Positions 37,188 through 57,367 of a DNA stretch of 64,000 nucleotides are shown one piece after another. Every line of letters starts with the position of its first letter. Positions within the stretch are counted from its first letter, which is position 1. Origin of the DNA: Gemmatimonadota bacterium. Its GTDB lineage: Bacteria > Gemmatimonadota > Gemmatimonadetes > Palauibacterales > Palauibacteraceae. The position numbers and the translations under genes were made by a program. The notes under the pieces were generated by a model. The model ran no database searches and was not told the origin of the DNA. It was given only the letters and a program-made list of their open reading frames with translations. The stretch lies in contig CP070670.1 in assembly GCA_020351855.1 (NCBI GenBank), positions 1,170,294-1,234,293 on the forward strand, in the 5' to 3' direction.

Positions 37188-37661
37188 CTACTCCCGTCTC
37201 CGCCGGCGGGATGGCGGCTCGTCGCCGGCGGCGCTGTCGGCTTCTGCCTCGGGCGGACGGATCGAGTCGACGCGGGCTCCGATGGTCTCCCAGAGCCCCT
37301 GCATCCGCGCTGCATCCCGTCCGGCGACGCGGGCGTACTCGAACAGGTCCTCGGCCGTCACGCCCCTCTCCTCCGCAAGCACCCGCTCCACGGAGTCGAG
37401 CGCCTGCTGCCGCGACCAGTACGGAAGGTCGAGTTCCTGAAGGGAGTCCTTGGTCAGGACGAGCTCCGTCATGATATCGACGTAGAGCTCGTCGCCCACC
37501 ACGAGGTCGTCCCGGGAGGGGGGTGAGCAACCGAAGCCCGCAGCCGGCAGCATCGAGAGCAGGAGTGCGAGCGCGGTCGCCGGTGCGGGCCGCCTAGGCG
37601 AGTCGCTCGAGGACGGCCCGCAGGACGTCATAAAACCTCTCCACCGAATCGACCTTGACAC
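37188..37661 (-). CDS. Hypothetical secreted protein or lipoprotein upstream of mlaE
   Basis: Signal-peptide-like N-terminus (...ALALLLSMLPAAGFGCS) followed by a helical, acidic mature domain. Real start is probably internal (M at about 37631). No family recognised. Confidence 0.4.
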   Translation of the reverse strand: MSRSIRWRGFMTSCGPSSSDSPRRPAPATALALLLSMLPAAGFGCSPPSRDDLVVGDELYVDIMTELVLTKDSLQELDLPYWSRQQALDSVERVLAEERGVTAEDLFEYARVAGRDAARMQGLWETIGARVDSIRPPEAEADSAAGDEPPSRRRRRE

Positions 37662-39042
37662 GCTCGTCCGGCGAGTGCGGGAACTCGATCTGGGGCCCGA
37701 AAGAGATCATGTCCATGCCCTCGAACTTCTCGCCGATGATGCCGCACTCTAGTCCCGCATGGACGGCTCCGACCTCCGGCTCCGAGATGCGCTCCGCGTA
37801 TACTTCCCGAACCAGAGCGAGAAGCTTCGAATCCACGTCTGGCTGCCAGCCGGGGTACGCTTCCCCCTCGTCGACGGATGCGCCGGCCAGAGAGCCGGCG
37901 GCCCGCAGCTGCTGCCTCATGGCGCGGAGTGCGGACGCTACGGAGCTACGGCTGCTGAGCAGGACGTCGATCTCGCCATCGCGCCTGGAGATGACCGCCA
38001 GATTCGTGCTGGTCTGGACGAGTCCCTCGATGTCGGGGCTCATCTCCACGACGCCATGGGGCAGGGCCATGAGGAGCGAGAGAACCCGGCTCGTCGTCTC
38101 CTCGTCACATGCCACGTCCGGAAGGTCGGCATCTGCGAGGATGAACTCCAGGCCGGGGTCCACGGTTGCCACCTCACGGCGGACCGTCTCGAGCCCGTTC
38201 TCCAGTGAGGCTCGCACCCGTTCGCCTGCCTCTGGGCCTCCCGGCACGACGATGGTCGCGCTCGCCTCGCGCGGGATGGCGTTGTGCGCGTTCCCACCGG
38301 CGATGGCGGCGAGCTGCAGCGGCTCATCCAGCCACGCCGCGTAGAGCGCGCGGGCCAGGACCTTGATCGCGTTGGCCCGCTGGAGATGAATGTCGACCCC
38401 GGAGTGCCCCCCCTTGAGCCCGTGGACCCTGATCTGGAGGGCGCTTCCCTGGGACGGCTCCTCCCCTGCCGGCAGCCGGAGATGCGTGTCTCCCCCGCCG
38501 GCGCAGCCGATGGTGAGGACGCCCTCCTCCTCCGAGTCGAGGTTGAGCAGCAGCCGACCCTCCAGCATGTCGTCCCCGAGGCCGGCCGCGCCCGTCAGCC
38601 CGGTCTCCTCGTCCACCGTGAAGAGGAACTCGAGCGGGCCGTGGCCCAGCTCGTCATCTTCCATGAGGGCCAGCATGGCTGCGACCCCGATCCCGTTGTC
38701 GGACCCGAGCGTCGTACCGGCGGCCTTGAGGTATGCTCCAACCTCCACGGGTGTGATCGGGTCACGCTCGAAATCGTGCTCGACGTCCGAGTTCTTCTCC
38801 TGCACCATGTCGAGGTGGGACTGGAGGATGGTCGTCGGCGCCGCCTCGTGCCCCGGTGCGGCCGGCTTTCGAACGACCAGGTTGCCGCTCGCATCCACCT
38901 TCGAGTCCAGCCCTCGGCGCTCTGCGACGCCGAGCACGTACTCGCGGATGCGACCCTCCTGCTTGGATGCCCGGGGGATCTTCAGGATCTCGTCGAAGTG
39001 CGACCACAACGAAGGCGGATTCCATTCCGATATGAACGACAA
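37594..39042 (-). CDS. pepD: Aminoacyl-histidine (Xaa-His) dipeptidase PepD, M20 family
   Basis: Aligns along its full length with E. coli PepD (MSFISEWNPPSLWSHFDEILKIPRAS vs MSELSQLSPQPLWDIFAKICSIPHPS; HLDMVQEKN; GTTLGSDNGIGVA; LKGGHSG; GLECGI). TTG start at 39042 follows AAGGAGG with a 5-nt spacer. Confidence 0.9.
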   Translation of the reverse strand: MSFISEWNPPSLWSHFDEILKIPRASKQEGRIREYVLGVAERRGLDSKVDASGNLVVRKPAAPGHEAAPTTILQSHLDMVQEKNSDVEHDFERDPITPVEVGAYLKAAGTTLGSDNGIGVAAMLALMEDDELGHGPLEFLFTVDEETGLTGAAGLGDDMLEGRLLLNLDSEEEGVLTIGCAGGGDTHLRLPAGEEPSQGSALQIRVHGLKGGHSGVDIHLQRANAIKVLARALYAAWLDEPLQLAAIAGGNAHNAIPREASATIVVPGGPEAGERVRASLENGLETVRREVATVDPGLEFILADADLPDVACDEETTSRVLSLLMALPHGVVEMSPDIEGLVQTSTNLAVISRRDGEIDVLLSSRSSVASALRAMRQQLRAAGSLAGASVDEGEAYPGWQPDVDSKLLALVREVYAERISEPEVGAVHAGLECGIIGEKFEGMDMISFGPQIEFPHSPDERVKVDSVERFYDVLRAVLERLA

Positions 39043-39236
39043 CGTGACCTCCTTCACGGTTCTTGACCCTGTGCTTCGCCGTCGCCCCGGCTCTCTGGCG
39101 CTACAAACCCCGGGCTGACAGCTTGCCCCACGATATCGTCGCTCGGCGCGAGCGTCCATGATTTCAGACGACCGGCTCGCGCCGTGGCGGCGAGACGATC
39201 AAGACACGCCCTCGATCTGCAACGGGAGACAGGCGG

Positions 39237-41216
39237 ATGAGCGACCGCAGCGACAAGCCCTACGTTCCGGCAGACGTGAGCATGGCCGAGCTCACGTTCA
39301 AGGCGCTGTTCCTAGGCGTCCTGATGGCCGTCGTGCTCGGCGCGGCGAATGCCTACATCGGGATGAAGGCGGGCCTCACCGTGGCCGCGACCTTCCCGGC
39401 CGCCGTCGTCGCCATGGCTGCGCTGCGTCCGCTGCGCGGCACCATCCTGGAGGAGAACATCGCCCGGACGACGGCCTCGGTGGGCGAGGCGCTGGTGGCC
39501 GGGGCCATCTTCACGCTTCCGGCCTTCATCATCGCCGGCGCGTGGGCCAACCTCCGGTACTGGGAGAGCACGATGATCATGCTGGTGGGGGGCGTGCTCG
39601 GCGTGCTCTTCGTCATCATGCTGCGGCGGACGCTGGTCGTCGAGGCGGACCTGCCGTTTCCCGAGTCGGTGGCGGCCTCCGAGATCGTCAAGGCGGGACA
39701 GGGTGGAGAGACGGGCGCGAAGTACGTGTTCGTGGCCATGGGACTGGCCGGTCTGTGGGAGCTCTTCAAGAACTCCAACGGCATCCAGCTGATGCACGAG
39801 CGTACCCAGGCGGTGTTCCAGTTCGGGCGCTCGCAGATGGAGGTCCTGGGCGAGCGGATCGAGTATACCGGGGGGCTTCTCGTAGCTACGCCTTCGGCCT
39901 CGCCGGCGCTCATGGGCGTCGGCTACATCGTCGGCCCCCGAGTGGCGGCCGTCCTGTTCAGCGGCGCGGTGATGGGCTGGCTGCTGCTCGTCCCGCTCGC
40001 GGTCTTTCTCAATCCGGCCTTTGCCACGGGCGCTGCGGGCCAGGCCCCCTTCGCGGATCTGGCCAACGAGGTTTGGGCGAAGCAGATCCGTCCCCTGGCC
40101 GTCGGAACGATGATCGTGGCCGCCTTCTACACCCTCTACTCCCTGAAGGATGCGCTCGTATCGGGGATCCGGAAGGCGCTGAGGGACATCAACGTCACGG
40201 GGGATGCACGGGTAGCCGAGCGTACGGAGATCGACCTCGACCTGCGCACGGTCTTCGTGGCCGTCGGCGTGATGGCCATCGTCTGCGCGTTCCTCTATTA
40301 CTTCTTCACACAGTCCCTCGGCGGCTCGCTGGTGCTTACGGCCGTCATGGTGGTGCTGGGCTTTCTGTTCGCTGCCGTCGCGGGCTATCTGGTCGGCCTG
40401 ATCGGCAGCTCGAACAACCCGATCTCCGGCCTGACGCTCAGCTCCCTCCTCATCGCGGCCGTGCTGATGGTGCTCATCGGAGTGACGGACGTCCAGGGCG
40501 TAGCCGGCGTCCTCGGAGTGGCCGGGGTGGTGTGCTGCGCCGCGGGTGTGGCCGGTGACATGATGCAGGATCTGAAGGTCGGTCACATCCTCGGTGGAAC
40601 ACCCTGGCGGATGCAGATCGGAGAGATCGTCGGGGTCATCGTGGCGGCGCTCGTGCTCGCCTTTGCGCTCATGGCCCTGCACAACGCGTACACCATCGGC
40701 TCGGCCGAGCTGCCGGCCCCGCAGGCCGGACTGATGGCGCTGATGGCCAATGGGATCGTCGGCGGGCAGATGGCCTGGCCGCTGGTCATCGTCGGCATGC
40801 TGTTCGCGGTGGGCCTCATCCTGATCAAGGCCCCGTCGCCGATGCTGATCGCCGTCGGGATGTATCTGCCGTTCTATTCCACGGCCGCCATCTTCGTAGG
40901 CGGAGTCATCCGCTGGGCGTTCGAGAGGATCGCCGATCGAAGAAAGCTGGGAGGCGATGAGAGGTCACGTGCCGTGAACACGGGCGTGCTGCTCTCGTCC
41001 GGTTTCATCGCGGGCGAATCCCTCATGGCCGTCGTGCTCGCCTTCCTCTTGTTGGGCGGAGACTTCATTCCGTTTCTCATCAGGCTGAAGGAGGGCCTCA
41101 CCCCGGGCTGGGAGCCCAGCTTCTGGGTGAGCCTGCTCGCGTTTCCCGCCGTCTTCTACCTGCTCGTGTGGCTGCCGCTCAGGCGGCTTCGGGTCGGCGG
41201 GATGGACGTCGGATAG
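39237..41216 (+). CDS. OPT-family oligopeptide transporter
   Basis: 659 aa with roughly 16 predicted TM helices. The N-terminus YVPADVSMAELTFKALFLGVLMAVVLGAANAYIGMKAGLTVAATFPAAVVAM is characteristic of bacterial OPT transporters. Confidence 0.85.
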   Translation: MSDRSDKPYVPADVSMAELTFKALFLGVLMAVVLGAANAYIGMKAGLTVAATFPAAVVAMAALRPLRGTILEENIARTTASVGEALVAGAIFTLPAFIIAGAWANLRYWESTMIMLVGGVLGVLFVIMLRRTLVVEADLPFPESVAASEIVKAGQGGETGAKYVFVAMGLAGLWELFKNSNGIQLMHERTQAVFQFGRSQMEVLGERIEYTGGLLVATPSASPALMGVGYIVGPRVAAVLFSGAVMGWLLLVPLAVFLNPAFATGAAGQAPFADLANEVWAKQIRPLAVGTMIVAAFYTLYSLKDALVSGIRKALRDINVTGDARVAERTEIDLDLRTVFVAVGVMAIVCAFLYYFFTQSLGGSLVLTAVMVVLGFLFAAVAGYLVGLIGSSNNPISGLTLSSLLIAAVLMVLIGVTDVQGVAGVLGVAGVVCCAAGVAGDMMQDLKVGHILGGTPWRMQIGEIVGVIVAALVLAFALMALHNAYTIGSAELPAPQAGLMALMANGIVGGQMAWPLVIVGMLFAVGLILIKAPSPMLIAVGMYLPFYSTAAIFVGGVIRWAFERIADRRKLGGDERSRAVNTGVLLSSGFIAGESLMAVVLAFLLLGGDFIPFLIRLKEGLTPGWEPSFWVSLLAFPAVFYLLVWLPLRRLRVGGMDVG

Positions 41217-41219
41217 GCG

Positions 41220-41615
41220 TTGGAAAGGCCGCGCCCCGCGGCTCGACCTCGCACGCCCCATCGGCACCGTCGGGCACGGCTGAAGGAGGCGAACCTCCTC
41301 GATCTCACGCCCGTGCGCGAGGCCGGTTGGACGGCGGCGGGCGGCCGCGTGACCCTGGAGCGGCCGAGGCCCAGCCGGCGCGGCATGCGCGGGGCTGTCG
41401 AGTGGCTGGCCTACCGGATGGCGGTTCGCCGCATCCGGCTCGACGAGGTAGGCAGCTGCTCCTGGGAATGCTTCGACGGCCAAACGACCGTGGGCGAGGC
41501 CTGCGCCGTTCTGCGGGACCGGTTCGGGGACGGCGTGGAGCCCGTCGAGGAGCGGCTCGGACGGTTCGTGCGGCACCTTCACCAGGACGGCTTTCTGTCG
41601 TACCGTGAAGAATAG
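41220..41615 (+). CDS. PqqD-family (RiPP recognition element-like) small protein
   Basis: The C-terminal ~75 aa (IRLDEVGSCSWECFDGQTTVGEACAVLRDRFGDGVEPVEERLGRFVRHLHQDGFLSYRE) has the PqqD three-helix pattern, comparable to K. pneumoniae PqqD (ILELVDGRRDVAAIIAMLNERF...VVEFLQIACQQKWI). Starts 4 nt after the OPT stop with TTG; the Arg-rich N-terminal 35 aa may not be translated. The 3' end overlaps the M14 start by 11 nt. Confidence 0.55.
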   Translation: MERPRPAARPRTPHRHRRARLKEANLLDLTPVREAGWTAAGGRVTLERPRPSRRGMRGAVEWLAYRMAVRRIRLDEVGSCSWECFDGQTTVGEACAVLRDRFGDGVEPVEERLGRFVRHLHQDGFLSYREE

Positions 41616-44139
41616 GACGCTGCGGGCAACCGCCCTCCTGATGGCCCTCGCGCCGCAACCCGCGCGGTCGCAGGAAGCTCCCTCTCCGGCGGCCGTGCTC
41701 GGGTACGCAGCGGGAGAGCGCTTCACGGACTCGGAGGGGGTGGTTCGCTACGCGAGCCGTCTGGCGGAGACTTCCCGGCGCATCGGCCTCGTGCGATACG
41801 GCGAGACCCCGGAGGGCCGCCCCCTTGTTCTGCTCGTCGCGGCCCGCGAGGATCGGGTGGGCCGGCTGGATGAGATCCGGGAGGCCATCGAGCGACTGCG
41901 GGATCCGGCGCTCCCGGCGGCACGGGCGACCGAACTGGCCCGCGCCATGCCGGCCGCCGTCTGGCTCGCCTACGGGGTGCACGGCGACGAGTCCTCATCC
42001 ACGGAAGCCGCCCTGTGGACGGCATACGATCTGGCGATCGGATCCCCCGGCACCGAGGCCGTTCTCGATTCGCTCGTCGTGATCATCGACCCGATGCTGA
42101 ACCCGGACGGACGGGATCGGTACGTCGACTGGTACAAGAGCGCACGTGCCGATCCTCCCAATCCGAGTCCGGAAGCCTACGAGCACGATCCCCCGTGGCC
42201 GGGCGGCCGATTCAACCATTACCTGTTCGACCTGAACCGCGACTGGTCCTGGGCCGTGCAGCCAGAGACCCGCGCCCGTCTGGAGGAGTACGGGCGCTGG
42301 AATCCGCAGGTGCTGGTGGACTTTCACGAGATGTCCCATACGAGCACGTACTTCTTTTTCCCCGCGGCCGAGCCCGTAAACCCGATCTATCCCCGCTCCG
42401 TGGCGGAGTGGGGAGAGTACTTCGGGAGAGCGAACGCTCGCGAGTTCGACCGCCGGCGCTGGCTCTACTACACGGAGGAGACCTTCGACCTCTTCTATCC
42501 CGGTTACGGCGACAGCTGGTCGAGTCTCAACGGCGCCATCGGGATGACGTACGAGCAGGCGGGCAGCCGAAGGGCCGGGCTGGCCGTCCGCCGCCCCGAC
42601 GGCTCGACCCTCACGCTGGCCGAACGCCTCGAGCACCATCGGGTCGCGGGCCTGGCCACCCTGCGGGCCGCGGCGGCGAGAAAGACACCGCTGCTCGAGG
42701 ACTTCGCGGCCTTCCACAGGGAGGTCGGTGAAGGCCCGGAGATTCTCCTGGTGCCGGCCTCCGACCCCCGGGCGGCGGAGGCACTGGTCGCTCTTCTCCT
42801 TCGCCAGGGTGTCGTGGTGGAACGGAGCACCCGTCCCTTCCGGGCTGCCGCGGAACCATACCAGGCGATCGCGGCGCGGGACGAGTTTCCCGCAGGAACG
42901 TATCGGGTGCCGCGCGCTCAGTCCCGGAGCCGCCTCGCCAGGACGCTACTGCAGGCCGAGACGCCGCTCGGCGGCGGCGACGTCCAGTACAGCTACGACG
43001 TGACCGCCTGGTCGCTGCCCTACGCGTTCGGCGTGGAAGCGCACACGGCGATGGGCCTGCAGCCGGCGGATTTCGAGCCCGTCAGCCTCGAGGGGTCGGC
43101 AGCGGTCCCGCTGGAGGGACCACCGCGGCCCGTGTACGGCTATCTCGTGCCGCCCGGATTCGGGTCGGCGGGGCCGCTCTACCGCTACGCGGCCTCGGGC
43201 GGCCGCGCGCACGCCCTGGCGGAGCCGTTCGAGATCGAAGGCCGCGGTTGGCCTCCCGGCACGGTCTTCCTCGCGGACGACGACTCCCTCGAGACGCGCC
43301 TGCGCGCGGCAGGCCTCGCCCCCCTGGCCGTCCCGGTCCAAAGCGGCCGCTCCACGGTTGGCCGCGATCTGGGCAGTGACCGCTCGCTCCCCCTTGAGGC
43401 TTCGCGGATCGCGGTACTGATGGGCGAGGGCGTTTCGCCGACCTCGTATGGTCAGATCTGGTATCTGCTGGAGCGAGGCCTGGGCATCCCGTTCGATCCG
43501 TTGAGAGCCGGAGAGATCGACGCTCGCACCCTGGACCGCTACGAAGTGCTCGTGGCGCCGCCGGGCCGCGAAGCGCTCTACGACGGCTTGGCGGATGTGC
43601 TGGCGGACTGGGTGGAGCGTGGCGGGACCCTGGTGGCTCTCGGCGAGTCGGCTCGCTGGGCGGCAGGGGCTATCGGCAGCGTCGCCGTGCGGGAAGCCGA
43701 CTCCAGCCAGGTCTCGGAGGCAGAGCGGCTCCGCCGGGCGCTCCGTACGCGACGCGAGCGGCGCAGCGAGCGTTGGGAGGATGCCGTCTCGGGGGTGATC
43801 CTTCCCGCGGCGGTCGATTCCGAGCACCCCCTCGGCTGGGGCGCGGGGGCCGGCAACCGCGAGGGAGCGCTCTTCGTACTCCACCGCGAGGACCTCTCCT
43901 TCGAGCCCGACGAGCGTTCCGAAGCCGTGATCCACTTCCCGCTCGACGTAAGCGAGGTCAGCGGGGTGATCAGCCCGCACAAGCTGGATCAGGCGGCCGG
44001 CTCTTCTTGGCTGGCGACGCAGGAGGTCGGGGCAGGCCGCATCATCCTGTTTGCGGACGATCCGCTGTTTCGGCTTTTCTGGTACTCGGGCTTCACGCCC
44101 TTCGCCAACGCGCTGCTATACGGGAAGGGCATTCGCTGA
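41605..44139 (+). CDS. Secreted M14-family zinc carboxypeptidase with a large C-terminal extension
   Basis: Signal peptide (TLRATALLMALAPQPARSQEAP). M14 motifs YGVHGDESSS (HxxE zinc ligands), NPDGR, DLNRDW and a second His in VDFHEMS. 844 aa in total. Confidence 0.85.
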   Translation: MKNRTLRATALLMALAPQPARSQEAPSPAAVLGYAAGERFTDSEGVVRYASRLAETSRRIGLVRYGETPEGRPLVLLVAAREDRVGRLDEIREAIERLRDPALPAARATELARAMPAAVWLAYGVHGDESSSTEAALWTAYDLAIGSPGTEAVLDSLVVIIDPMLNPDGRDRYVDWYKSARADPPNPSPEAYEHDPPWPGGRFNHYLFDLNRDWSWAVQPETRARLEEYGRWNPQVLVDFHEMSHTSTYFFFPAAEPVNPIYPRSVAEWGEYFGRANAREFDRRRWLYYTEETFDLFYPGYGDSWSSLNGAIGMTYEQAGSRRAGLAVRRPDGSTLTLAERLEHHRVAGLATLRAAAARKTPLLEDFAAFHREVGEGPEILLVPASDPRAAEALVALLLRQGVVVERSTRPFRAAAEPYQAIAARDEFPAGTYRVPRAQSRSRLARTLLQAETPLGGGDVQYSYDVTAWSLPYAFGVEAHTAMGLQPADFEPVSLEGSAAVPLEGPPRPVYGYLVPPGFGSAGPLYRYAASGGRAHALAEPFEIEGRGWPPGTVFLADDDSLETRLRAAGLAPLAVPVQSGRSTVGRDLGSDRSLPLEASRIAVLMGEGVSPTSYGQIWYLLERGLGIPFDPLRAGEIDARTLDRYEVLVAPPGREALYDGLADVLADWVERGGTLVALGESARWAAGAIGSVAVREADSSQVSEAERLRRALRTRRERRSERWEDAVSGVILPAAVDSEHPLGWGAGAGNREGALFVLHREDLSFEPDERSEAVIHFPLDVSEVSGVISPHKLDQAAGSSWLATQEVGAGRIILFADDPLFRLFWYSGFTPFANALLYGKGIR

Positions 44140-44295
44140 CGCGTCGGCTGCCGCCATGGCAGCGATCCCGCCCCGTTGGAGCCCGGTTGCGCCGGGTTGG
44201 CGGTCCGGCCGTCCCGATCGGCAGCCCGGGAGCCCTTCCGGGGGGCATGGCCCTTGCCCCTTCCTACCGCAGAACTCGAAGGAGGGCACCGTACG

Positions 44296-44868
44296 ATGCT
44301 GAACGAGAAGAACGAACCACGAGAGGAACGGTCCGGGGCGGAGGAGGACGAGCCGCGCAGCGGTTCGGCCGAGAGCGGATCCGGGGAGCCGAGCCGAGAA
44401 GCGGGAGAGACCACCGGTGAGGCGGGCCGGGGTTCCGGCGAGCGCTCGACACGAGACGTCTGGGGGCGCGGGCTCTCCGAGTTCCAGGATGTCGTCGGCG
44501 AGATCCTGGGCAGCTTTCGCAATCTCCCACCACTCGGCGGGCGCGATCCGCGACACGATCTGATTCAGGTTCCAGGCGAAGGGTATTGGGTGCTCATGGA
44601 CCTGCCGGGAGTGGAGAAGGCAGAGCTGGAGATCTCCATCGTGGGCGATGACGTGTGCATCGCCGGAGAGAGACAGCGTCCGAGGCTCCCCGAGGGCAGC
44701 GAGGTGCTGGGTTCCGGACGGGCATACGGTCGATTCCGACGGGACATCCGCATGCCGAGCGACGTCGACCAGGGCGGCGTCCGCGCCAAGCTGGAGAGCG
44801 GGGTCCTGAAGCTCGTGCTGCCGCGGAGGACGGAGACCGAGCGCGTTCGGGTGGAGGTCGAGTCCTGA
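44296..44868 (+). CDS. Small heat shock protein, Hsp20/alpha-crystallin family, with a long acidic disordered N-terminus
   Basis: Alpha-crystallin domain (DLIQVPGEGYWVLMDLPGVEKAELEISIVGDDVCIAGERQ...GRFRRDIRMPSDVDQGGVRAKLESGVLKLVLP). Strong RBS GAAGGAGGG upstream of the ATG. Confidence 0.9.
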   Translation: MLNEKNEPREERSGAEEDEPRSGSAESGSGEPSREAGETTGEAGRGSGERSTRDVWGRGLSEFQDVVGEILGSFRNLPPLGGRDPRHDLIQVPGEGYWVLMDLPGVEKAELEISIVGDDVCIAGERQRPRLPEGSEVLGSGRAYGRFRRDIRMPSDVDQGGVRAKLESGVLKLVLPRRTETERVRVEVES

Positions 44869-54665: not shown

Positions 54666-55994
54666 GTGCCGGAAGCATCCCGTCGCCGTTGGATGAGGCT
54701 CGTTAGAGTCGGCACCGAGGGCCTCCCGACCGTGGCGCTCCTCGCTGCGGCCGTGGCCGGCATGGCATGCGCCCGGGAGGAGCCGCCGCCCGGTACCCGT
54801 CCGGACCGCACGCCGCCGGGGGTCCGCGTGCTGAAGCCGGACAAGTTCGCCGTGGTTCCGGGCTTCGGTGGGAGTGCCGAAGTCCAGTTCGATGAGCCGA
54901 TCAGCGGGGCACGTGGCCTGCAGCAACGCGTCGTCGCTTCCCCGGCCGGGCGATACGAGATCTCGGCCGGCTTTTCCAACCTGAAGATCCGGCCGACCGA
55001 CGGCTGGGGTGATGGAATCGTCTATCACATCAGGATTCCCGAAGGCATCGCGGACCTCCTCGGCAACCGCACCCAGGGACCGATCGACCTCGTATTCTCG
55101 ACGGGTCCGGAGATCTCGAGCACTCGGGTAACGGGCGATGTGCGCCGCCGGGTGGACGGCAATGCCGTGACATCGGGGAGGGTGACCCTCCTGAACGTGG
55201 CCGGCGATTCGATTCCCTACAGTGCGCCGACCGAGTCGGATGGCAGCTTCGAGCTCTCGTACGCCCCTGCTGATGATTACTGGTCGTTCGCCTTTCAGGA
55301 CCTGAACGGCAACTTCGTGCTCGACCGCATGTTCGAACCCTACGACAGCGCCCGTCTGGAGCTTCTCGCGGATGGCCGGGTCGAGCGATCCTTTCGCATC
55401 GTCGAACCCGATACGACACCGCCCATCCTCGGCCGCATCGAGGTCGTCGACACGCTCTCGCTCGAGCTGGAGTTCGACGACTATCTGGACCCGACGCAGG
55501 ATTTTGGTGCGGCCGGGCTCGAGATCCGGCAGCTGGACAGTGGGCGTCGTATCGAGATCGAGGCGGTCACGCTGAGCGAAGCGATACGCGGCCGCGCCGC
55601 CGGCACACCCGGCGCCAGAGTGCGGCCGGACACGCTGCCCGAGGCGGCGCCGGACACGCTGCCCGAGGCGGCGCCGGACACGCTGCCCGAGGCGGCGCCG
55701 GACACGTTGCCCGAGGCGGCGCCGGACACGCTGCCCGAGGCGGCTGAGCCGCCGCCCGAAGAGGTGTTGCCTTCCCAGATGCTGCTCGTGCGCCTGGCCT
55801 CTCCGCTCGGAGAGGGAAGATATGGGATCTCGATGGATCGAGTAGTCAACCTGCGGCAGCTCGCGGCCGCCATCGACACGGTCTTCGCCTACCCGCAGGA
55901 AGCCCCGCCTGCGCCGCTGGAGGGCGAGGGGGAGGCGAGCGAGCCGGCGGATTCTGTGGGTGGTGACGTGCCCCCGCGTGGTGGGGTGCGGTGA
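54666..55994 (+). CDS. Secreted protein or lipoprotein with a carboxypeptidase-regulatory-like/Ig-like beta domain and a 5x PDTLPEAA tandem repeat
   Basis: Signal peptide (LPTVALLAAAVAGMAC), then a CarboxypepD_reg-like segment (VTGDVRRRVDGNAVTSGRVTLLNVAGDSIPYSAPTESDGSFELSYAP), then five in-frame 8-aa repeats. The stop overlaps the selA start. Confidence 0.55.
   Translation: MPEASRRRWMRLVRVGTEGLPTVALLAAAVAGMACAREEPPPGTRPDRTPPGVRVLKPDKFAVVPGFGGSAEVQFDEPISGARGLQQRVVASPAGRYEISAGFSNLKIRPTDGWGDGIVYHIRIPEGIADLLGNRTQGPIDLVFSTGPEISSTRVTGDVRRRVDGNAVTSGRVTLLNVAGDSIPYSAPTESDGSFELSYAPADDYWSFAFQDLNGNFVLDRMFEPYDSARLELLADGRVERSFRIVEPDTTPPILGRIEVVDTLSLELEFDDYLDPTQDFGAAGLEIRQLDSGRRIEIEAVTLSEAIRGRAAGTPGARVRPDTLPEAAPDTLPEAAPDTLPEAAPDTLPEAAPDTLPEAAEPPPEEVLPSQMLLVRLASPLGEGRYGISMDRVVNLRQLAAAIDTVFAYPQEAPPAPLEGEGEASEPADSVGGDVPPRGGVR
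55626..55745 (+). repeat. 24-bp tandem repeat x5 (CCGGACACGCTGCCCGAGGCGGCG), coding and in frame
   Basis: Five head-to-tail copies with a single C-to-T variant in copy 4 and a terminal G-to-T in copy 5. It encodes (PDTLPEAA)5 within the 54666-55994 ORF. Confidence 0.9.
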
Positions 55995-57367
55995 CAGACC
56001 TCCGGAGGCGGATTCCGTCCGTTGACCGGCTGTTGGCCGACGAGCGGGCCGTCGAGTGGTCTTGCCGGTACGGCCGGGACGTCGTGAGGAACGCCCTGCG
56101 GGACGCCATCGGGAGACAGCGGATCCTGGCCGTCGAAGGAACGGCGATGCCGGACGCCGGGTCGATTCTGGAGGAGACCGAGGCCCGGCTTCGGGAACGA
56201 GCGAGGCCGGGGCTACGCCGCGTGTTGAATGGGACGGGGGTCGTCCTGCATACCAACCTGGGCCGCGCCCCGCTGCCCGAGGAGGCACTGGCCGCGCTGC
56301 GGTCGATCGCGCGCGGGTACTGCAACCTGGAGTTCGATCTGGGAGGCGGGGAGCGGGGAAGCCGTCATGATCACTGCAGTGCTCTCCTACGGGAGCTGAC
56401 CGGATCGGAGGCCGCTCTCGTCGTCAACAACAACGCGGCCGCCGTGGCGCTCGTGGTGAACGAGTTCGCGCAGGGACGCGAGGTCATCGTGTCGCGCGGT
56501 GAGCTGGTGGAGATCGGAGGTTCATTCCGGGTCCCGGAGCTCGTTGAGCGAGCCGGCGGCCGGCTGGTGGAGGTGGGGACCACGAACCGAACTCGGATCA
56601 CGGACTATCGACGGGCGATCGGCGACCGCACCGGTCTCATCCTGAAGGTCCATCCGTCAAACTACCGGATCCACGGCTTCGTGGAGGAGGTGGCACTGGA
56701 AGAGCTCGCAGAGCTCGGTCACAGCCACGGGCTGCCCGTGGCAAACGACCTCGGTTCGGGTCTGCTTCTCGGTCACCTGCTACCGCTTCTGCCGGCCGAA
56801 CCCGCTCCGCGCGATGCCGCAGCCGCCGGAGCGGCCGTCGTCACCTGGAGCGGCGACAAGCTGCTGGGCGGCCCGCAAGCCGGTGTGATACATGGTACGG
56901 AGGCGGCGGTCGCCCGCCTTCGAGGGAACCCGCTTCTGCGAGCCTTCCGCGTCGACAAGCTCACGATCGCGGCCCTCGAGGCCACGCTGCGCCTTCACGC
57001 GAACCCGGAGGCGGCCGCCGACCGGATTCCGGCCGTCGCGATGCTGCGCGAGCCCGCCGCGTCGGTACGCGCACGGGCGACGGCAGCGCTTTCCCATTGT
57101 CCAGCCGTGGTCGAGCAGGGACTCGAGGTGCGCCCGCTGGAATCGCTGGTCGGTGGCGGGGCCTATCCGGAAGTGGTGCTCGAGTCGGCCGGCTGGGCCT
57201 CTGCCGGCCGATCCGCCGGGCTTCTCGAGGAACGCTGCCGCGCCGCGGACCCCCCTCTCATCGGCAGGATCGAAGGCGATGCGTTCTGCATCGACTTCAG
57301 GACGATCCGGCCCGGCGAAGAGCGAGACGTCGCCTCGATCGTGACGCGAGCCTGGGGGCCGTCATGA
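55991..57367 (+). CDS. selA: L-seryl-tRNA(Sec) selenium transferase (selenocysteine synthase)
   Basis: Aligns with E. coli SelA along its length (VLHTNLGRAPL; LEFDLGGGERGSRHDHCSALLRELTGSEAALVVNNNAAAV; VVSRGELVEIGGSFRVPE; PLP-lysine region SGDKLLGGPQAGVIHG; KLTIAALEATLRLH). Confidence 0.9.
   Translation: MTDLRRRIPSVDRLLADERAVEWSCRYGRDVVRNALRDAIGRQRILAVEGTAMPDAGSILEETEARLRERARPGLRRVLNGTGVVLHTNLGRAPLPEEALAALRSIARGYCNLEFDLGGGERGSRHDHCSALLRELTGSEAALVVNNNAAAVALVVNEFAQGREVIVSRGELVEIGGSFRVPELVERAGGRLVEVGTTNRTRITDYRRAIGDRTGLILKVHPSNYRIHGFVEEVALEELAELGHSHGLPVANDLGSGLLLGHLLPLLPAEPAPRDAAAAGAAVVTWSGDKLLGGPQAGVIHGTEAAVARLRGNPLLRAFRVDKLTIAALEATLRLHANPEAAADRIPAVAMLREPAASVRARATAALSHCPAVVEQGLEVRPLESLVGGGAYPEVVLESAGWASAGRSAGLLEERCRAADPPLIGRIEGDAFCIDFRTIRPGEERDVASIVTRAWGPS

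What the first reader, a model, noticed from the sequence alone, without database searches (positions are those of the whole stretch)
39237..44139. Orphan PqqD-like domain sandwiched between an OPT peptide transporter and a secreted M14 carboxypeptidase, next to pepD
PqqD-family domains normally act as peptide-binding partners of radical-SAM or lasso/sactipeptide RiPP enzymes. Here a small PqqD-like ORF (41220-41615) starts 4 nt after an OPT oligopeptide transporter and overlaps the GTG start of an 844-aa secreted M14 carboxypeptidase by 11 nt. There is no radical SAM, cyclase or ABC exporter in the neighbourhood, and the divergently transcribed neighbour is the Xaa-His dipeptidase PepD. The arrangement (transporter, peptide-binding domain, exopeptidase, dipeptidase) suggests a peptide capture or processing module in which a recognition-element-like domain is used outside a canonical RiPP pathway. 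Alternatively a RiPP precursor is encoded elsewhere. Tight translational coupling indicates the three plus-strand genes are one transcript.
Basis: inference. Interest (0 to 1): 0.55.

Follow-up and report, generated by a model that had tools for sequence, protein, structure and literature searches.

The report
OPT transporter's conserved small RRE-fold partner
A small peptide-binding protein of the kind normally used to make modified peptide natural products is here, and in many other bacteria, a fixed genetic partner of a peptide-import channel, which suggests an undescribed role in peptide uptake; the neighbouring secreted carboxypeptidase is only a local add-on.

Summary
ORF 41220-41615 is coding (GC3 0.84), passes the Pfam PqqD cutoff (37.3 vs 23.4 bits), and models as an RRE fold (pLDDT 81; TbiB1 TM 0.80). 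It starts 3 nt after OPT's stop and overlaps the M14 GTG by 11 nt. No RiPP enzyme lies anywhere in the 64-kb window.

The conserved unit is not OPT/PqqD/M14. It is OPT plus the PqqD-like protein, often with PepD.
- Of 31 distinct loci encoding this small-protein family (Gemmatimonadota, Acidobacteriota and others; GC 37-72%), 25 have OPT directly upstream, 3 have it nearby and 3 have none.
- Of 66 independently sampled OPT loci, 31 carry the partner directly downstream (20 of 24 among close OPTs).
- M14 follows only in the closest Gemmatimonadales relatives (0 of 80 OPT loci) and is secreted, while the small protein has no signal peptide.

The family is large (508 clusters at E≤1e-10). It adds three features to the RRE core: a basic N-terminal tail, an NLLDLxPxR motif, and a ~22-residue basic amphipathic insert.

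Best reading: a cytoplasmic, peptide-binding accessory or regulatory partner of bacterial OPT importers. The linkage and fold are shown; binding, localisation and mechanism are inferred. I found no published description. This is a new variant of a known kind.

The parts
37594..39159 (-). pepD-type M20 dipeptidase (Xaa-His / cytosol non-specific dipeptidase subfamily), divergently transcribed from OPT. The true start is probably about 35-48 codons downstream of the first ATG.
   Evidence: TIGR01893 E 7.5e-160, 532.7 bits against a 343.75 cutoff, matching from residue 49. PF01546 and PF07687 also hit. Orthologs lie next to OPT in many loci, either divergent upstream or directly downstream of the PqqD-like gene.
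39160..39236 (.). Short divergent intergenic region shared by pepD and the OPT operon. It is longer if pepD starts downstream of its first ATG. It presumably holds both promoters.
   Evidence: Coordinates. No sigma-70 consensus was found. A regulatory role is inferred only.
39237..41216 (+). OPT-family oligopeptide permease, 659 aa, ending in TAG.
   Evidence: TIGR00733 E 6e-121, 404.7 bits against 182.5. PF03169 E 3e-94, full length. 14 strong hydrophobic peaks. Orthologs at 47-90% identity in more than 100 loci.
41220..41615 (+). OPT-associated PqqD/RRE-fold protein, 131 aa from the TTG, soluble. This is the focus of the finding.
   Evidence: PF05402 at 37.3 bits against 23.4. GC3 0.84. Family of 508 clusters with E<=1e-10. 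AF2 pLDDT 81.3. Best PDB fold matches are RRE domains, with TbiB1 5v1v at TMt 0.80 and rmsd 2.7 A. OPT lies directly upstream in 25 of 31 family loci.
41220..41291 (+). Basic, poorly conserved, disordered N-terminal tail (residues 1-24; 9 K/R and 2 D/E in the first 25 residues).
   Evidence: pI 12 and pLDDT 52-70. The family-wide median net charge of the tail is +2, K-rich in low-GC members.
41292..41318 (+). Family-specific N-terminal motif NLLDLxPxR (residues 25-33), leading into strand 1.
   Evidence: Conservation across 120 sequences: N25 72%, L26 77%, L27 82%, P31 99%, R33 80%. Not covered by PF05402 or by any PDB RRE alignment. Its conservation places the true start upstream of 41292, which favours TTG 41220.
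41364..41429 (+). Family-specific insert of about 22 residues between strands 2 and 3 (residues 49-70): PxP, then a basic, aromatic, amphipathic helix.
   Evidence: Helix at residues 56-67 in both AF2 models, pLDDT about 67-69. Median net charge +4, best hydrophobic moment 0.65, aromatic fraction 13% across 120 members. Absent from canonical PqqD and TbiB1 in the alignments.
41430..41612 (+). Canonical RRE core: strand 3 (RIRLD), then helices 1-3, with L74, D75, W82 and G87 invariant and G78, D86 and R112 nearly invariant.
   Evidence: pLDDT 88-94. Aligns to PqqD 3g2b (E 8e-4), TbiB1 5v1u (7e-3) and the PqqD-family protein 9x8z (2e-4). Conservation.
41605..44139 (+). Secreted M14 zinc carboxypeptidase, 844 aa, probably co-transcribed. 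It is a lineage-specific addition and not part of the conserved pair.
   Evidence: PF00246 E 1e-12. HGDE126, NPDG166 and DFH239 present. The signal peptide is conserved in 842-844-aa homologs. The family has more than 5,000 members. It is adjacent to the PqqD-like gene only in L002/L003 and L093 and in 0 of 80 OPT loci.

Best explanation
The 131-aa protein belongs to a large, previously unremarked subfamily of free-standing RRE (PqqD-fold) proteins whose fixed genetic partner is an OPT-family peptide permease, not a RiPP-modifying enzyme.

Proposed mechanism:
1. The gene is made together with OPT, through adjacent or overlapping genes.
2. The protein stays in the cytoplasm. It is held at the inner face of the membrane or transporter by its basic N-terminal tail and its basic amphipathic insert.
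3. It uses the conserved strand-3/helix-3 groove of the RRE fold to bind an extended peptide by beta-strand addition. That peptide is either the incoming oligopeptide or a conserved cytoplasmic segment of OPT itself.
4. In this way it either hands imported peptides on to cytosolic peptidases such as the co-located PepD, or gates or stabilises the transporter.

In this Gemmatimonadales lineage a secreted M14 carboxypeptidase gene has been appended downstream. This extends the locus into a peptide-scavenging operon: extracellular trimming, then import, then cytosolic dipeptide hydrolysis.

Shown: gene reality, Pfam membership, RRE fold, conserved OPT linkage in both directions, absence of RiPP genes, and lack of a signal peptide or TM segment.

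Inferred: cytoplasmic location, membrane or OPT docking, peptide binding, and the functional outcome.
For: Fold and family:
- PF05402 is above its gathering score.
- AF2 pLDDT is 81.3, with the strand 1-3 plus three-helix order.
- Nearly all high-probability PDB fold hits are RRE domains or RRE-containing proteins: TbiB1 with leader peptide (TMt 0.77-0.80), MadB, MibB, Rv2067c, PbtF, ThcOx and TfuB1.
- Sequence-level matches to PqqD and TbiB1.

Linkage, from the family to OPT:
- OPT is directly upstream on the same strand in 25 of 31 distinct loci, from 37% to 72% GC.
- It is divergent-adjacent or within 2 kb in 3 more.

Linkage, from OPT to the family:
- 31 of 66 informative metagenomic OPT loci carry the gene directly downstream, and 20 of 24 where OPT is >=52% identical.
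- Partnered OPTs are each other's nearest relatives.
- The gene downstream of the small gene varies; only OPT is constant.

Peptide-catabolism theme:
- pepD is adjacent in many loci, including OPT-PqqD-pepD operons (L150, L163, L166, L189).
- L111 holds a PTR2-OPT-x-PqqD-PepD-M3 cluster.

Coupling: the gap is 3 nt in the window, and the genes overlap in L106, L129, L132, L141, L143 and L147.

Soluble and basic flanks:
- Maximum Kyte-Doolittle 19-residue average is 0.43.
- N-terminal tail is +2, insert is +4 with muH 0.65, core pI is 6.9.

Conserved groove: L74 and D75 (strand 3) are invariant and E107, P108 and R112 (start of helix 3) are 80-98% conserved across 120 sequences. From established RRE structural knowledge, strand 3 and helix 3 are the elements that flank the leader-binding groove.

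No RiPP enzyme in the window or in the annotated neighbourhoods of 12 loci.

Prior context analysis predicted that prokaryotic OPTs import peptides, and noted OPT-peptidase fusions with a cytoplasmic N-terminus (PMC3061005).
Against: - No direct evidence of any physical interaction. The tools report no interface metrics, so no complex could be modelled.
- No OPT-RRE fusion protein appeared among the 150 best representatives. L060, which looked like a fusion, is in a different frame.
- About half of the sampled OPT homologs lack the gene nearby, so it is not required by all OPTs.
- Three family loci lack OPT within the available flank: L049, L052 and L110.
- I found no OPT region specific to partnered transporters. 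C-terminal tails do not discriminate, and phylogeny confounds column tests.
- A strongly conserved groove argues against promiscuous binding of diverse imported peptides, so the identity of the ligand is open.
- A basic tail and a basic amphipathic helix would also suit nucleic-acid binding.
- The substrate and direction of transport of bacterial OPTs are uncharacterised.
Confidence: 0.55

Rival explanations
1. It is a winged-helix nucleic-acid-binding regulator of the pepD/OPT locus, possibly responsive to peptides. The RRE-like fold reflects the known structural kinship between RREs and wHTH regulators.
For: - RRE-Finder's authors note that RREs are structurally homologous to HTH regulators, and that lasso-unlinked PqqD-like proteins may be DNA binders (PMC7470986).
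- The protein has a very basic N-terminal tail (pI 12) and a +4 insert.
- There is a weak sub-threshold hit to an HTH family, DUF4817 (E 0.009).
- It sits beside a divergent promoter region.
- Divergent OPT/PqqD arrangements exist (L089/L107).
Against: - No DNA-binding wHTH protein appears among the confident fold hits.
- No HTH family passes its cutoff.
- The helix that would be the recognition helix begins with the conserved acidic E-P-x-E-E-R motif, and the core is neutral, with pI 6.9.
- The gene is usually the distal, translationally coupled gene of the OPT operon, which suits a stoichiometric partner better than a low-abundance regulator.
Confidence: 0.13
2. It is a cytoplasmic receptor for a specific imported signalling or antibiotic peptide. 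OPT brings the peptide in, and the RRE recognises a defined motif in it, in the way that Opp-imported pheromones meet cytoplasmic receptors.
For: - RREs bind short defined recognition sequences with high specificity (PMC12710340).
- The groove residues are strongly conserved, which fits one conserved ligand.
- The linkage to an importer is conserved.
Against: - No conserved small ORF or peptide-producing genes accompany the pair in any locus.
- The frequent partners are general peptidases, PepD and M3, which points to nutrition rather than signalling.
- The protein has no evident output domain.
Confidence: 0.12
3. It is a conventional RiPP recognition element whose precursor and modifying enzymes are encoded elsewhere in the genome. 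The position next to OPT is incidental, or reflects export or import of the product.
For: - PF05402 membership and the RRE fold.
- Only 64 kb of the genome is visible.
- More distant PqqD-family relatives sit with ABC/FtsX transporters and unknown genes (L112, L113).
Against: - The OPT adjacency is conserved across phyla and GC contents in 25 of 31 loci, with variable other neighbours.
- No rSAM, YcaO, LanB/C or lasso B2/C domains were found in the window or in the annotated loci.
- Scores against the RiPP-specific NCBIfam equivalogs are far below cutoff: PqqD 19.5 against 46, ScmD 15.3 against 100, lasso B1 11.5 against 80.
- Discrete RREs are characteristically encoded beside their enzymes (established knowledge of RiPP clusters; PMC7470986).
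Confidence: 0.08
4. The first reader's module: the PqqD-like domain works directly with the secreted M14 carboxypeptidase, capturing peptides for exopeptidase processing.
For: An 11-nt overlap and likely co-transcription in the window and its closest relatives.
Against: - M14 is absent from 0 of 80 sampled OPT loci... that is, none of the 80 has it, and it is absent from all but the closest Gemmatimonadales family loci.
- M14 has a conserved signal peptide, while the small protein has none.
- M14 belongs to a family of more than 5,000 members, mostly without this neighbour. One database gene call fuses it with Hsp20, which suggests its usual neighbour lies on the Hsp20 side.
Confidence: 0.03

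Closest known systems
Discrete RiPP recognition elements: PqqD (PDB 3g2b, 5sxy) and lasso-peptide B1 proteins such as TbiB1 (5v1v) and TfuB1 (6jx3)
   Same: - Same Pfam family (PF05402).
- Same fold order: three strands followed by three helices.
- Same sequence signature in strand 3 and helices 1-3: hLD/LNxxGxxhWxxhDGxxTxxEI.
- Free-standing small protein of about 90-130 aa.
- Fold match to TbiB1 at TMt 0.80.
   Different: - Adds a basic N-terminal tail plus the NLLDLxPxR motif, and a basic amphipathic insert of about 22 residues between strands 2 and 3.
- Its constant neighbour is an OPT permease, not a radical SAM enzyme, lasso protease/cyclase or other modifying enzyme.
- No precursor peptide gene accompanies it.
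- It fails the PqqD, ScmD and lasso-B1 equivalog cutoffs.
Prokaryotic OPT-family permeases with peptidase neighbours or peptidase fusions (Gomolplitinant & Saier 2011, PMC3061005)
   Same: An OPT permease genetically coupled to cytoplasmic peptide-processing proteins. A pepD-type dipeptidase lies next to OPT here and in many loci.
   Different: That analysis reported peptidases and other enzymes as neighbours, not a PqqD-like protein. Here the coupled partner is a non-catalytic peptide-binding fold.
AmtB-GlnK gene pair (conceptual analogue only; from general knowledge, not tested)
   Same: A membrane transporter gene followed by a conserved gene for a small soluble protein. In AmtB-GlnK that protein docks on the transporter's cytoplasmic face to regulate flux.
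   Different: The folds and families are unrelated. No interaction or regulation has been shown for OPT and the RRE-fold protein.
Winged-helix transcription regulators
   Same: Related overall topology, small size and basic segments.
   Different: No family hit above cutoff and no confident structural hit. The start of the putative recognition helix is conserved and acidic.

Membership tests
PqqD / RRE superfamily (Pfam PF05402) | Profile match above the curated gathering score | tested here: met
   37.3 bits against 23.4, E 3.5e-9, residues 71-126. The precomputed PF05402 annotation is on nearly all homologs.
PqqD / RRE superfamily (Pfam PF05402) | RRE fold: a three-stranded antiparallel sheet followed by a three-helix winged-helix bundle | tested here: met
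   AF2 pLDDT 81.3, with strands at 31-33/36-40, 43-47 and 71-73 and helices at 76-84, 91-106 and 109-122. Foldseek top hits are RRE domains, with TbiB1 at TMt 0.80 and 2.7 A. An extra helix at 56-67 is inserted.
PqqD / RRE superfamily (Pfam PF05402) | Binds a peptide as an added strand along strand 3, next to helix 3 | not testable with these tools
   Only indirect: strand-3 residues (L74, D75) and helix-3 residues (E107, P108, R112) are the most conserved in the family.
RiPP biosynthetic RRE (functional class) | Encoded within a cluster that has a precursor peptide and a modifying enzyme (radical SAM/SPASM, lasso B2/C, YcaO, LanB, and so on) | tested here: not met
   None among the 44 gene calls scanned in the window, nor in the Pfam-annotated neighbourhoods of 12 related loci. 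The constant neighbour is OPT.
Bona fide PqqD of PQQ biosynthesis (TIGR03859) | Equivalog score of at least 46, and pqqA/B/C/E neighbours | tested here: not met
   19.5 bits against a cutoff of 46. No pqq genes in the window.
Lasso peptide B1 chaperone (NF033536) | Model score of at least 80, and adjacent B2 protease and C cyclase | tested here: not met
   11.5 bits against 80. No transglutaminase-like protease or lasso cyclase nearby.
OPT oligopeptide transporter family (TIGR00733 / PF03169) | Full-length profile match above cutoff; polytopic membrane protein of about 16 TMS | tested here: met
   404.7 bits against 182.5; PF03169 positions 1-622 of 623. 14 strong hydrophobic peaks in a crude scan. 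Transport activity and substrate were not tested.
PepD (aminoacyl-histidine / cytosol non-specific dipeptidase, M20) | Subfamily model TIGR01893 above cutoff; equivalog to E. coli PepD (NF011600) | tested here: inconclusive
   TIGR01893 at 532.7 against 343.75 is met. The NF011600 equivalog at 366 against 991 is not met. So it is a member of the subfamily, and orthology to E. coli PepD is not established.
M14 zinc carboxypeptidase | PF00246 match; HxxE...H zinc ligands; secretion signal | tested here: met
   48.6 bits against 21.6. HGDE126, NPDG166 and DFH239 are present. The signal peptide is conserved in homologs. Only the N-terminal half of the Pfam model aligns.
Winged-helix DNA-binding regulators | HTH family profile match, or a structural match to DNA-binding wHTH proteins | tested here: not met
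   Only DUF4817, at 16.1 bits against 22.6. No confident wHTH regulator in the fold searches.

The most novel reading that the evidence does not exclude
A widespread RRE-fold protein is a dedicated cytoplasmic subunit or gatekeeper of bacterial OPT peptide permeases. This would be the first RRE family whose job is peptide uptake and handling rather than natural-product biosynthesis. It would give the first mechanistic handle on bacterial OPT transporters, which remain essentially uncharacterised, and would suggest that leader-peptide recognition in RiPP pathways shares ancestry with a general peptide-handling module.
Probability: 0.45. Interest if true: 0.75.

Novelty: new variant of a known kind. 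Interest (0 to 1): 0.6.

Why it matters
For RiPP genome mining:
- PqqD/RRE domains are treated as a hallmark of RiPP biosynthetic clusters and are used as class-independent mining hooks.
- A large subfamily (hundreds of clusters at 50% identity) whose conserved partner is a peptide importer would be a systematic non-RiPP source of such hits.
- It would also show the fold being reused for peptide handling in primary metabolism.

For transport biology:
- Bacterial OPT transporters are common in soil and sediment phyla (Gemmatimonadota, Acidobacteriota) but have essentially no biochemistry.
- A conserved, translationally coupled soluble partner is a concrete, testable lead for how they are regulated or coupled to cytosolic peptidases.

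Tried and rejected
1. OPT-PqqD fusion or stop-codon readthrough. The two ORFs share a frame, separated by TAG plus one codon, in the window. Across 22 loci only 8 are in frame, which is the chance expectation. The apparent 452-codon fusion ORF in L060 is in a different frame from OPT. No OPT-sized protein is in the top 150 representatives. Rejected.

2. The search for related loci with the small-protein alignments failed because there is no conserved run of 7-10 columns. I replaced it with a back-translated RRIRLDxxGxxxW DNA pattern. That biases the sample to high-GC members, so I complemented it with context look-ups of distant, low-GC members.

3. Search for an OPT region specific to partnered transporters. 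C-terminal tails do not discriminate. Partner presence follows OPT phylogeny, so column contrasts would be confounded. Abandoned.

4. Complex modelling of OPT with the small protein.

5. The AFDB50 fold library was unavailable.

6. Promoter/terminator and Rfam scans of 37.0-45.5 kb gave nothing informative.

7. Literature searches for an OPT-PqqD link found nothing relevant.

8. A second OPT paralog beside the PqqD-like gene in L131 and L183: none within the available flank.
Full report
**1. The observation**

The ORF list and profile scans confirm four genes:
- a pepD-type M20 dipeptidase on the minus strand, 37594-39159 (TIGR01893, 532.7 bits);
- an OPT-family permease, 39237-41216 (TIGR00733, 404.7 bits);
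- a 131-codon ORF, 41220-41615, that passes Pfam's PqqD model (PF05402; 37.3 bits against a gathering score of 23.4; E 3.5e-9);
- an 844-aa M14 carboxypeptidase, 41605-44139 (PF00246, 48.6 bits).

The sequence shows OPT's TAG ending at 41216, a single GCG codon, then the TTG at 41220 in the same frame. The M14 GTG at 41605 overlaps the small ORF's last 11 nt. The small ORF has the GC3 bias of its neighbours, 0.84.

I scanned all 44 of my gene calls in the 64-kb window against Pfam. They are housekeeping genes or have no match: UvrD, GatB, the RimP-NusA-IF2-RbfA-TruB-RibF-S15-PNPase block, MreB, PBP2, RodA, AccD, ProRS, NIF3, Mla, Hsp20, ClpB, ValRS, SelA, PurH and cytochrome oxidase. None is a radical SAM, YcaO, lanthipeptide or lasso enzyme.

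**2. The small gene is real and belongs to a large family**

A word-indexed search found 29 homologs down to 43% identity, nearly all already carrying PF05402. An exhaustive profile search of 1.84 billion representatives found 1,474 clusters at E<=1e-3 and 508 at E<=1e-10. Almost all are free-standing proteins of 110-135 aa that match the profile end to end. Members come from low-GC as well as high-GC organisms.

The shared layout is:
- a short basic tail;
- an NLLDLxPxR motif (P31 conserved in 99%);
- a beta-hairpin;
- an insert of about 22 residues that starts PxP;
- the canonical RRE signature R-I-R-L-D-x-x-G-S-x-x-W-x-x-x-D-G-x-x-T-V, followed by F-G-x-x-x-E-P-x-E-E-R-L. L74, D75, W82 and G87 are invariant across 120 sequences.

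Conservation of the NLLDL motif means translation must begin upstream of 41292. That leaves TTG 41220 as the only canonical start. A 98%-identical database protein was called from the later GTG (P0001, 100 aa).

**3. Fold**

AlphaFold2 with 27 sequences gave pLDDT 71.7. With 120 diverse sequences it gave 81.3, with 86-94 over the hairpin and the strand-3-to-helix-3 core, about 68 over the inserted helix (residues 56-67), and a disordered basic tail.

Foldseek against the PDB returns, at probability about 1.0, RRE domains and RRE-containing proteins:
- TbiB1 bound to its leader peptide (5v1v; TMt 0.80, rmsd 2.7 A);
- the RRE domains of the lanthipeptide dehydratases MadB and MibB;
- Rv2067c, PbtF, ThcOx and TfuB1.

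No DNA-binding winged-helix protein appears with meaningful probability. At sequence level the family profile hits a PqqD-family protein (9x8z, E 2e-4), PqqD (3g2b, 8e-4) and TbiB1 (7e-3). These matches cover only strand 3 and helices 1-3, so the N-terminal half is specific to this family.

The RiPP-specific NCBIfam equivalogs are all far below cutoff: PqqD 19.5 against 46, ScmD 15.3 against 100, lasso B1 11.5 against 80.

**4. What is actually conserved around it**

Context look-ups and a genome-collection scan with a back-translated motif gave 31 distinct loci that encode family members, counting the window.
- In 25, an OPT gene (39-90% identical to the window's) lies directly upstream on the same strand. 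These include a 42% GC contig (L106), where the two genes overlap.
- In 3 more, OPT is divergent-adjacent (L089/L107), one gene away (L111), or about 1.9 kb upstream (L077).
- In 3, no OPT is within the available flank: L049 and L052, where a response-regulator gene is upstream, and L110.

Two much weaker PqqD-family hits (E 2e-11 and 8e-9) have an unrelated context and mark the edge of the subfamily.

The gene downstream of the small gene is not conserved. It is M14 in the window, a type-IV-pilin-like operon on the other strand, MglB/MglA-like genes, a Tn5-type transposase, an RlmB-like methyltransferase, CtaG, or pepD.

The titled genome hits are Gemmatimonadota, Acidobacteriota (including Thermoanaerobaculia and Sulfomarinibacteraceae) and Ca. 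Multivoradales. The window's closest relative is a Gemmatimonadales MAG (L093).

**5. The reverse test**

I sampled 80 OPT loci from metagenomes using an OPT alignment, independently of the small gene. Of these, 66 had enough downstream sequence to be informative.
- 31 carry the PqqD-like gene directly downstream on the same strand.
- 2 carry it elsewhere in the locus.
- 33 lack it.
- Among OPTs at least 52% identical to the window's, 20 of 24 have it.

Within the more distant OPT sub-clade, the partnered OPTs are each other's nearest neighbours. The one exception, L162, has pepD fused directly behind OPT, which looks like a recent loss. The partner is therefore inherited along with particular OPT lineages.

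pepD is a frequent third member. It is divergent upstream, as in the window, in L001, L002, L013, L021, L040, L075, L104, L108, L109 and L114-L118. It lies immediately downstream of the small gene in L150, L163, L166 and L189. L111 (37% GC) has PTR2 - OPT - unknown - PqqD-like - PepD - M3 oligopeptidase.

**6. M14 is a local addition**

M14 follows the small gene only in the window and in L002/L003 and L093, where the proteins are about 73% identical. None of the 80 OPT loci has it.

It belongs to a family of more than 5,000 proteins of about 840-860 aa, annotated as 'M14 family metallopeptidase', mostly from Gemmatimonadota and Longimicrobiales. One database gene call fuses it with Hsp20, which hints that its habitual neighbour is on the Hsp20/ClpB side.

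Homolog N-termini are clear signal peptides that align with MKNRTLRATALLMALAPQPARS|QE. So M14 is exported. The small protein has no hydrophobic stretch, with a maximum 19-residue Kyte-Doolittle average of 0.43. A direct partnership between the two is unlikely. Functionally, an extracellular carboxypeptidase fits a peptide-scavenging operon.

**7. Mechanism (inferred)**

Established knowledge of RREs is that they bind an extended peptide as an extra strand along strand 3, against helix 3, and act as adaptors to a partner protein. In this family the most conserved residues lie in exactly those elements.

The two family-specific additions are both basic: the tail has a median net charge of +2, and the insert +4 with a hydrophobic moment of 0.65 and 13% aromatic residues. 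The RRE core is neutral, with pI 6.9. That pattern suits docking on the cytoplasmic membrane surface or on an acidic face of the transporter. The tight or overlapping gene junctions suggest the two proteins are produced together.

I therefore propose a cytoplasmic, OPT-docked, peptide-binding accessory protein. It would either pass imported peptides to cytosolic peptidases or gate or stabilise the permease by binding one of its cytoplasmic segments. Because the groove is so strongly conserved, I lean towards a conserved ligand, such as an OPT segment, over promiscuous cargo binding.

None of this is demonstrated. Localisation, binding and effect on transport are all inferences.

**8. Rivals**

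- *Winged-helix regulator.* Not excluded, given the basic segments and the known RRE/HTH kinship (PMC7470986). It is disfavoured by the fold hits, the acidic conserved start of the would-be recognition helix, and the operon-distal coupled position.
- *Receptor for one specific imported peptide.* Fits the conserved groove, but no linked producer genes or output domain are present.
- *Conventional RiPP RRE with distant partners.* Contradicted by the cross-phylum OPT synteny and the failed equivalog tests.

**9. Comparison with the literature**

Gomolplitinant & Saier (PMC3061005) inferred from context that prokaryotic OPTs import peptides. They reported peptidase neighbours and fusions, and a cytoplasmic N-terminus, but no PqqD-like partner. 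RRE-Finder (PMC7470986) and the 2025 structure-based RRE survey (PMC12710340) do not mention an OPT-associated group in their main text. Phrase searches found nothing. NCBIfam has no dedicated model, and the only source name I saw was 'PqqD family protein'. Within what I could search, the pairing is undescribed. I did not search the supplementary tables of those surveys.

**10. Verdict**

It is wrong about the module's composition, because M14 is incidental and OPT, with or without PepD, is the conserved partner. It is a new variant of a known kind, of moderate-to-good interest, because it is widespread, cleanly testable, and touches both RiPP genome mining and the uncharacterised bacterial OPT transporters.

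Noticed in passing
Loci L149-L193 (e.g. L163, L172, L189, L153, L187); not in the window OPT, whose C-terminus is encoded at 41170-41213: Many bacterial OPT homologs end, after the last transmembrane segment, in a strongly conserved C-terminal tail ...PL.NAG.PDEPAPP(S/T)A(I/V)M-stop. It is present whether or not a PqqD-like gene follows. The window's OPT ends differently (LPLRRLRVGGMDVG). The function is unknown.
   Followed up: no
L010:2856-2900 and L045:2470-2500: In two Acidobacteriota loci there is no ATG, GTG or TTG between the upstream stop and the conserved NLLEL motif of the PqqD-like gene. Both have an in-frame CTG at the same position, 11 codons before the Asn, which suggests CTG initiation.
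   Followed up: partly
window 41605-41641: The public (JGI) gene call for the identical M14 protein (P0257, 832 aa) starts at ATG 41641 and so loses the signal peptide. Homologs of 842-844 aa with aligned signal peptides support the upstream GTG at 41605.
   Followed up: yes
window 39040-39159: The first ATG of pepD gives 521 aa with an Arg-rich, unmatched 48-residue N-terminus. The family model and orthologs (about 482-487 aa) indicate a start further downstream, which would widen the pepD-OPT divergent intergenic region.
   Followed up: partly
P0354 (database protein); window 41605-44868: One database gene call fuses an M14 homolog with an Hsp20 domain (1054 aa). M14-Hsp20-ClpB is also the gene order in the window and in L002, L003 and L093. 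ClpB is also near OPT, without M14, in L029, L079, L088 and L090. The M14/Hsp20 adjacency may be conserved in its own right.
   Followed up: no
L112:4121-5393 and L113:4141-5435: More distant PqqD-family proteins (E 2e-11 and 8e-9 to the distant-member profile A3) overlap the 3' end of an unannotated gene of 291-295 aa. They sit with ABC and FtsX-type transporter genes. This is a different, also uncharacterised, PqqD-like context.
   Followed up: no
L049:5808-7665 and L052:3676-5351: In two Acidobacteriota/Thermoanaerobaculia MAGs the OPT-type PqqD-like gene is not next to OPT. Instead it directly follows a gene of 427-434 aa whose N-terminus looks like a response-regulator receiver domain.
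   Followed up: no
window 55991-57367: A selenocysteine synthase gene (SelA; PF03841, E 2e-130) is present, which implies selenoprotein use in this Gemmatimonadales-like genome.
   Followed up: no
window 41214-41216 and the OPT stop codons in 21 related loci: OPT genes that have a PqqD-like partner end in TAG in 15 of 22 loci. That seems high for GC-rich genomes, where I would expect TGA to dominate (from general knowledge; not measured against these genomes). It may only reflect shared ancestry of the junction.
   Followed up: no
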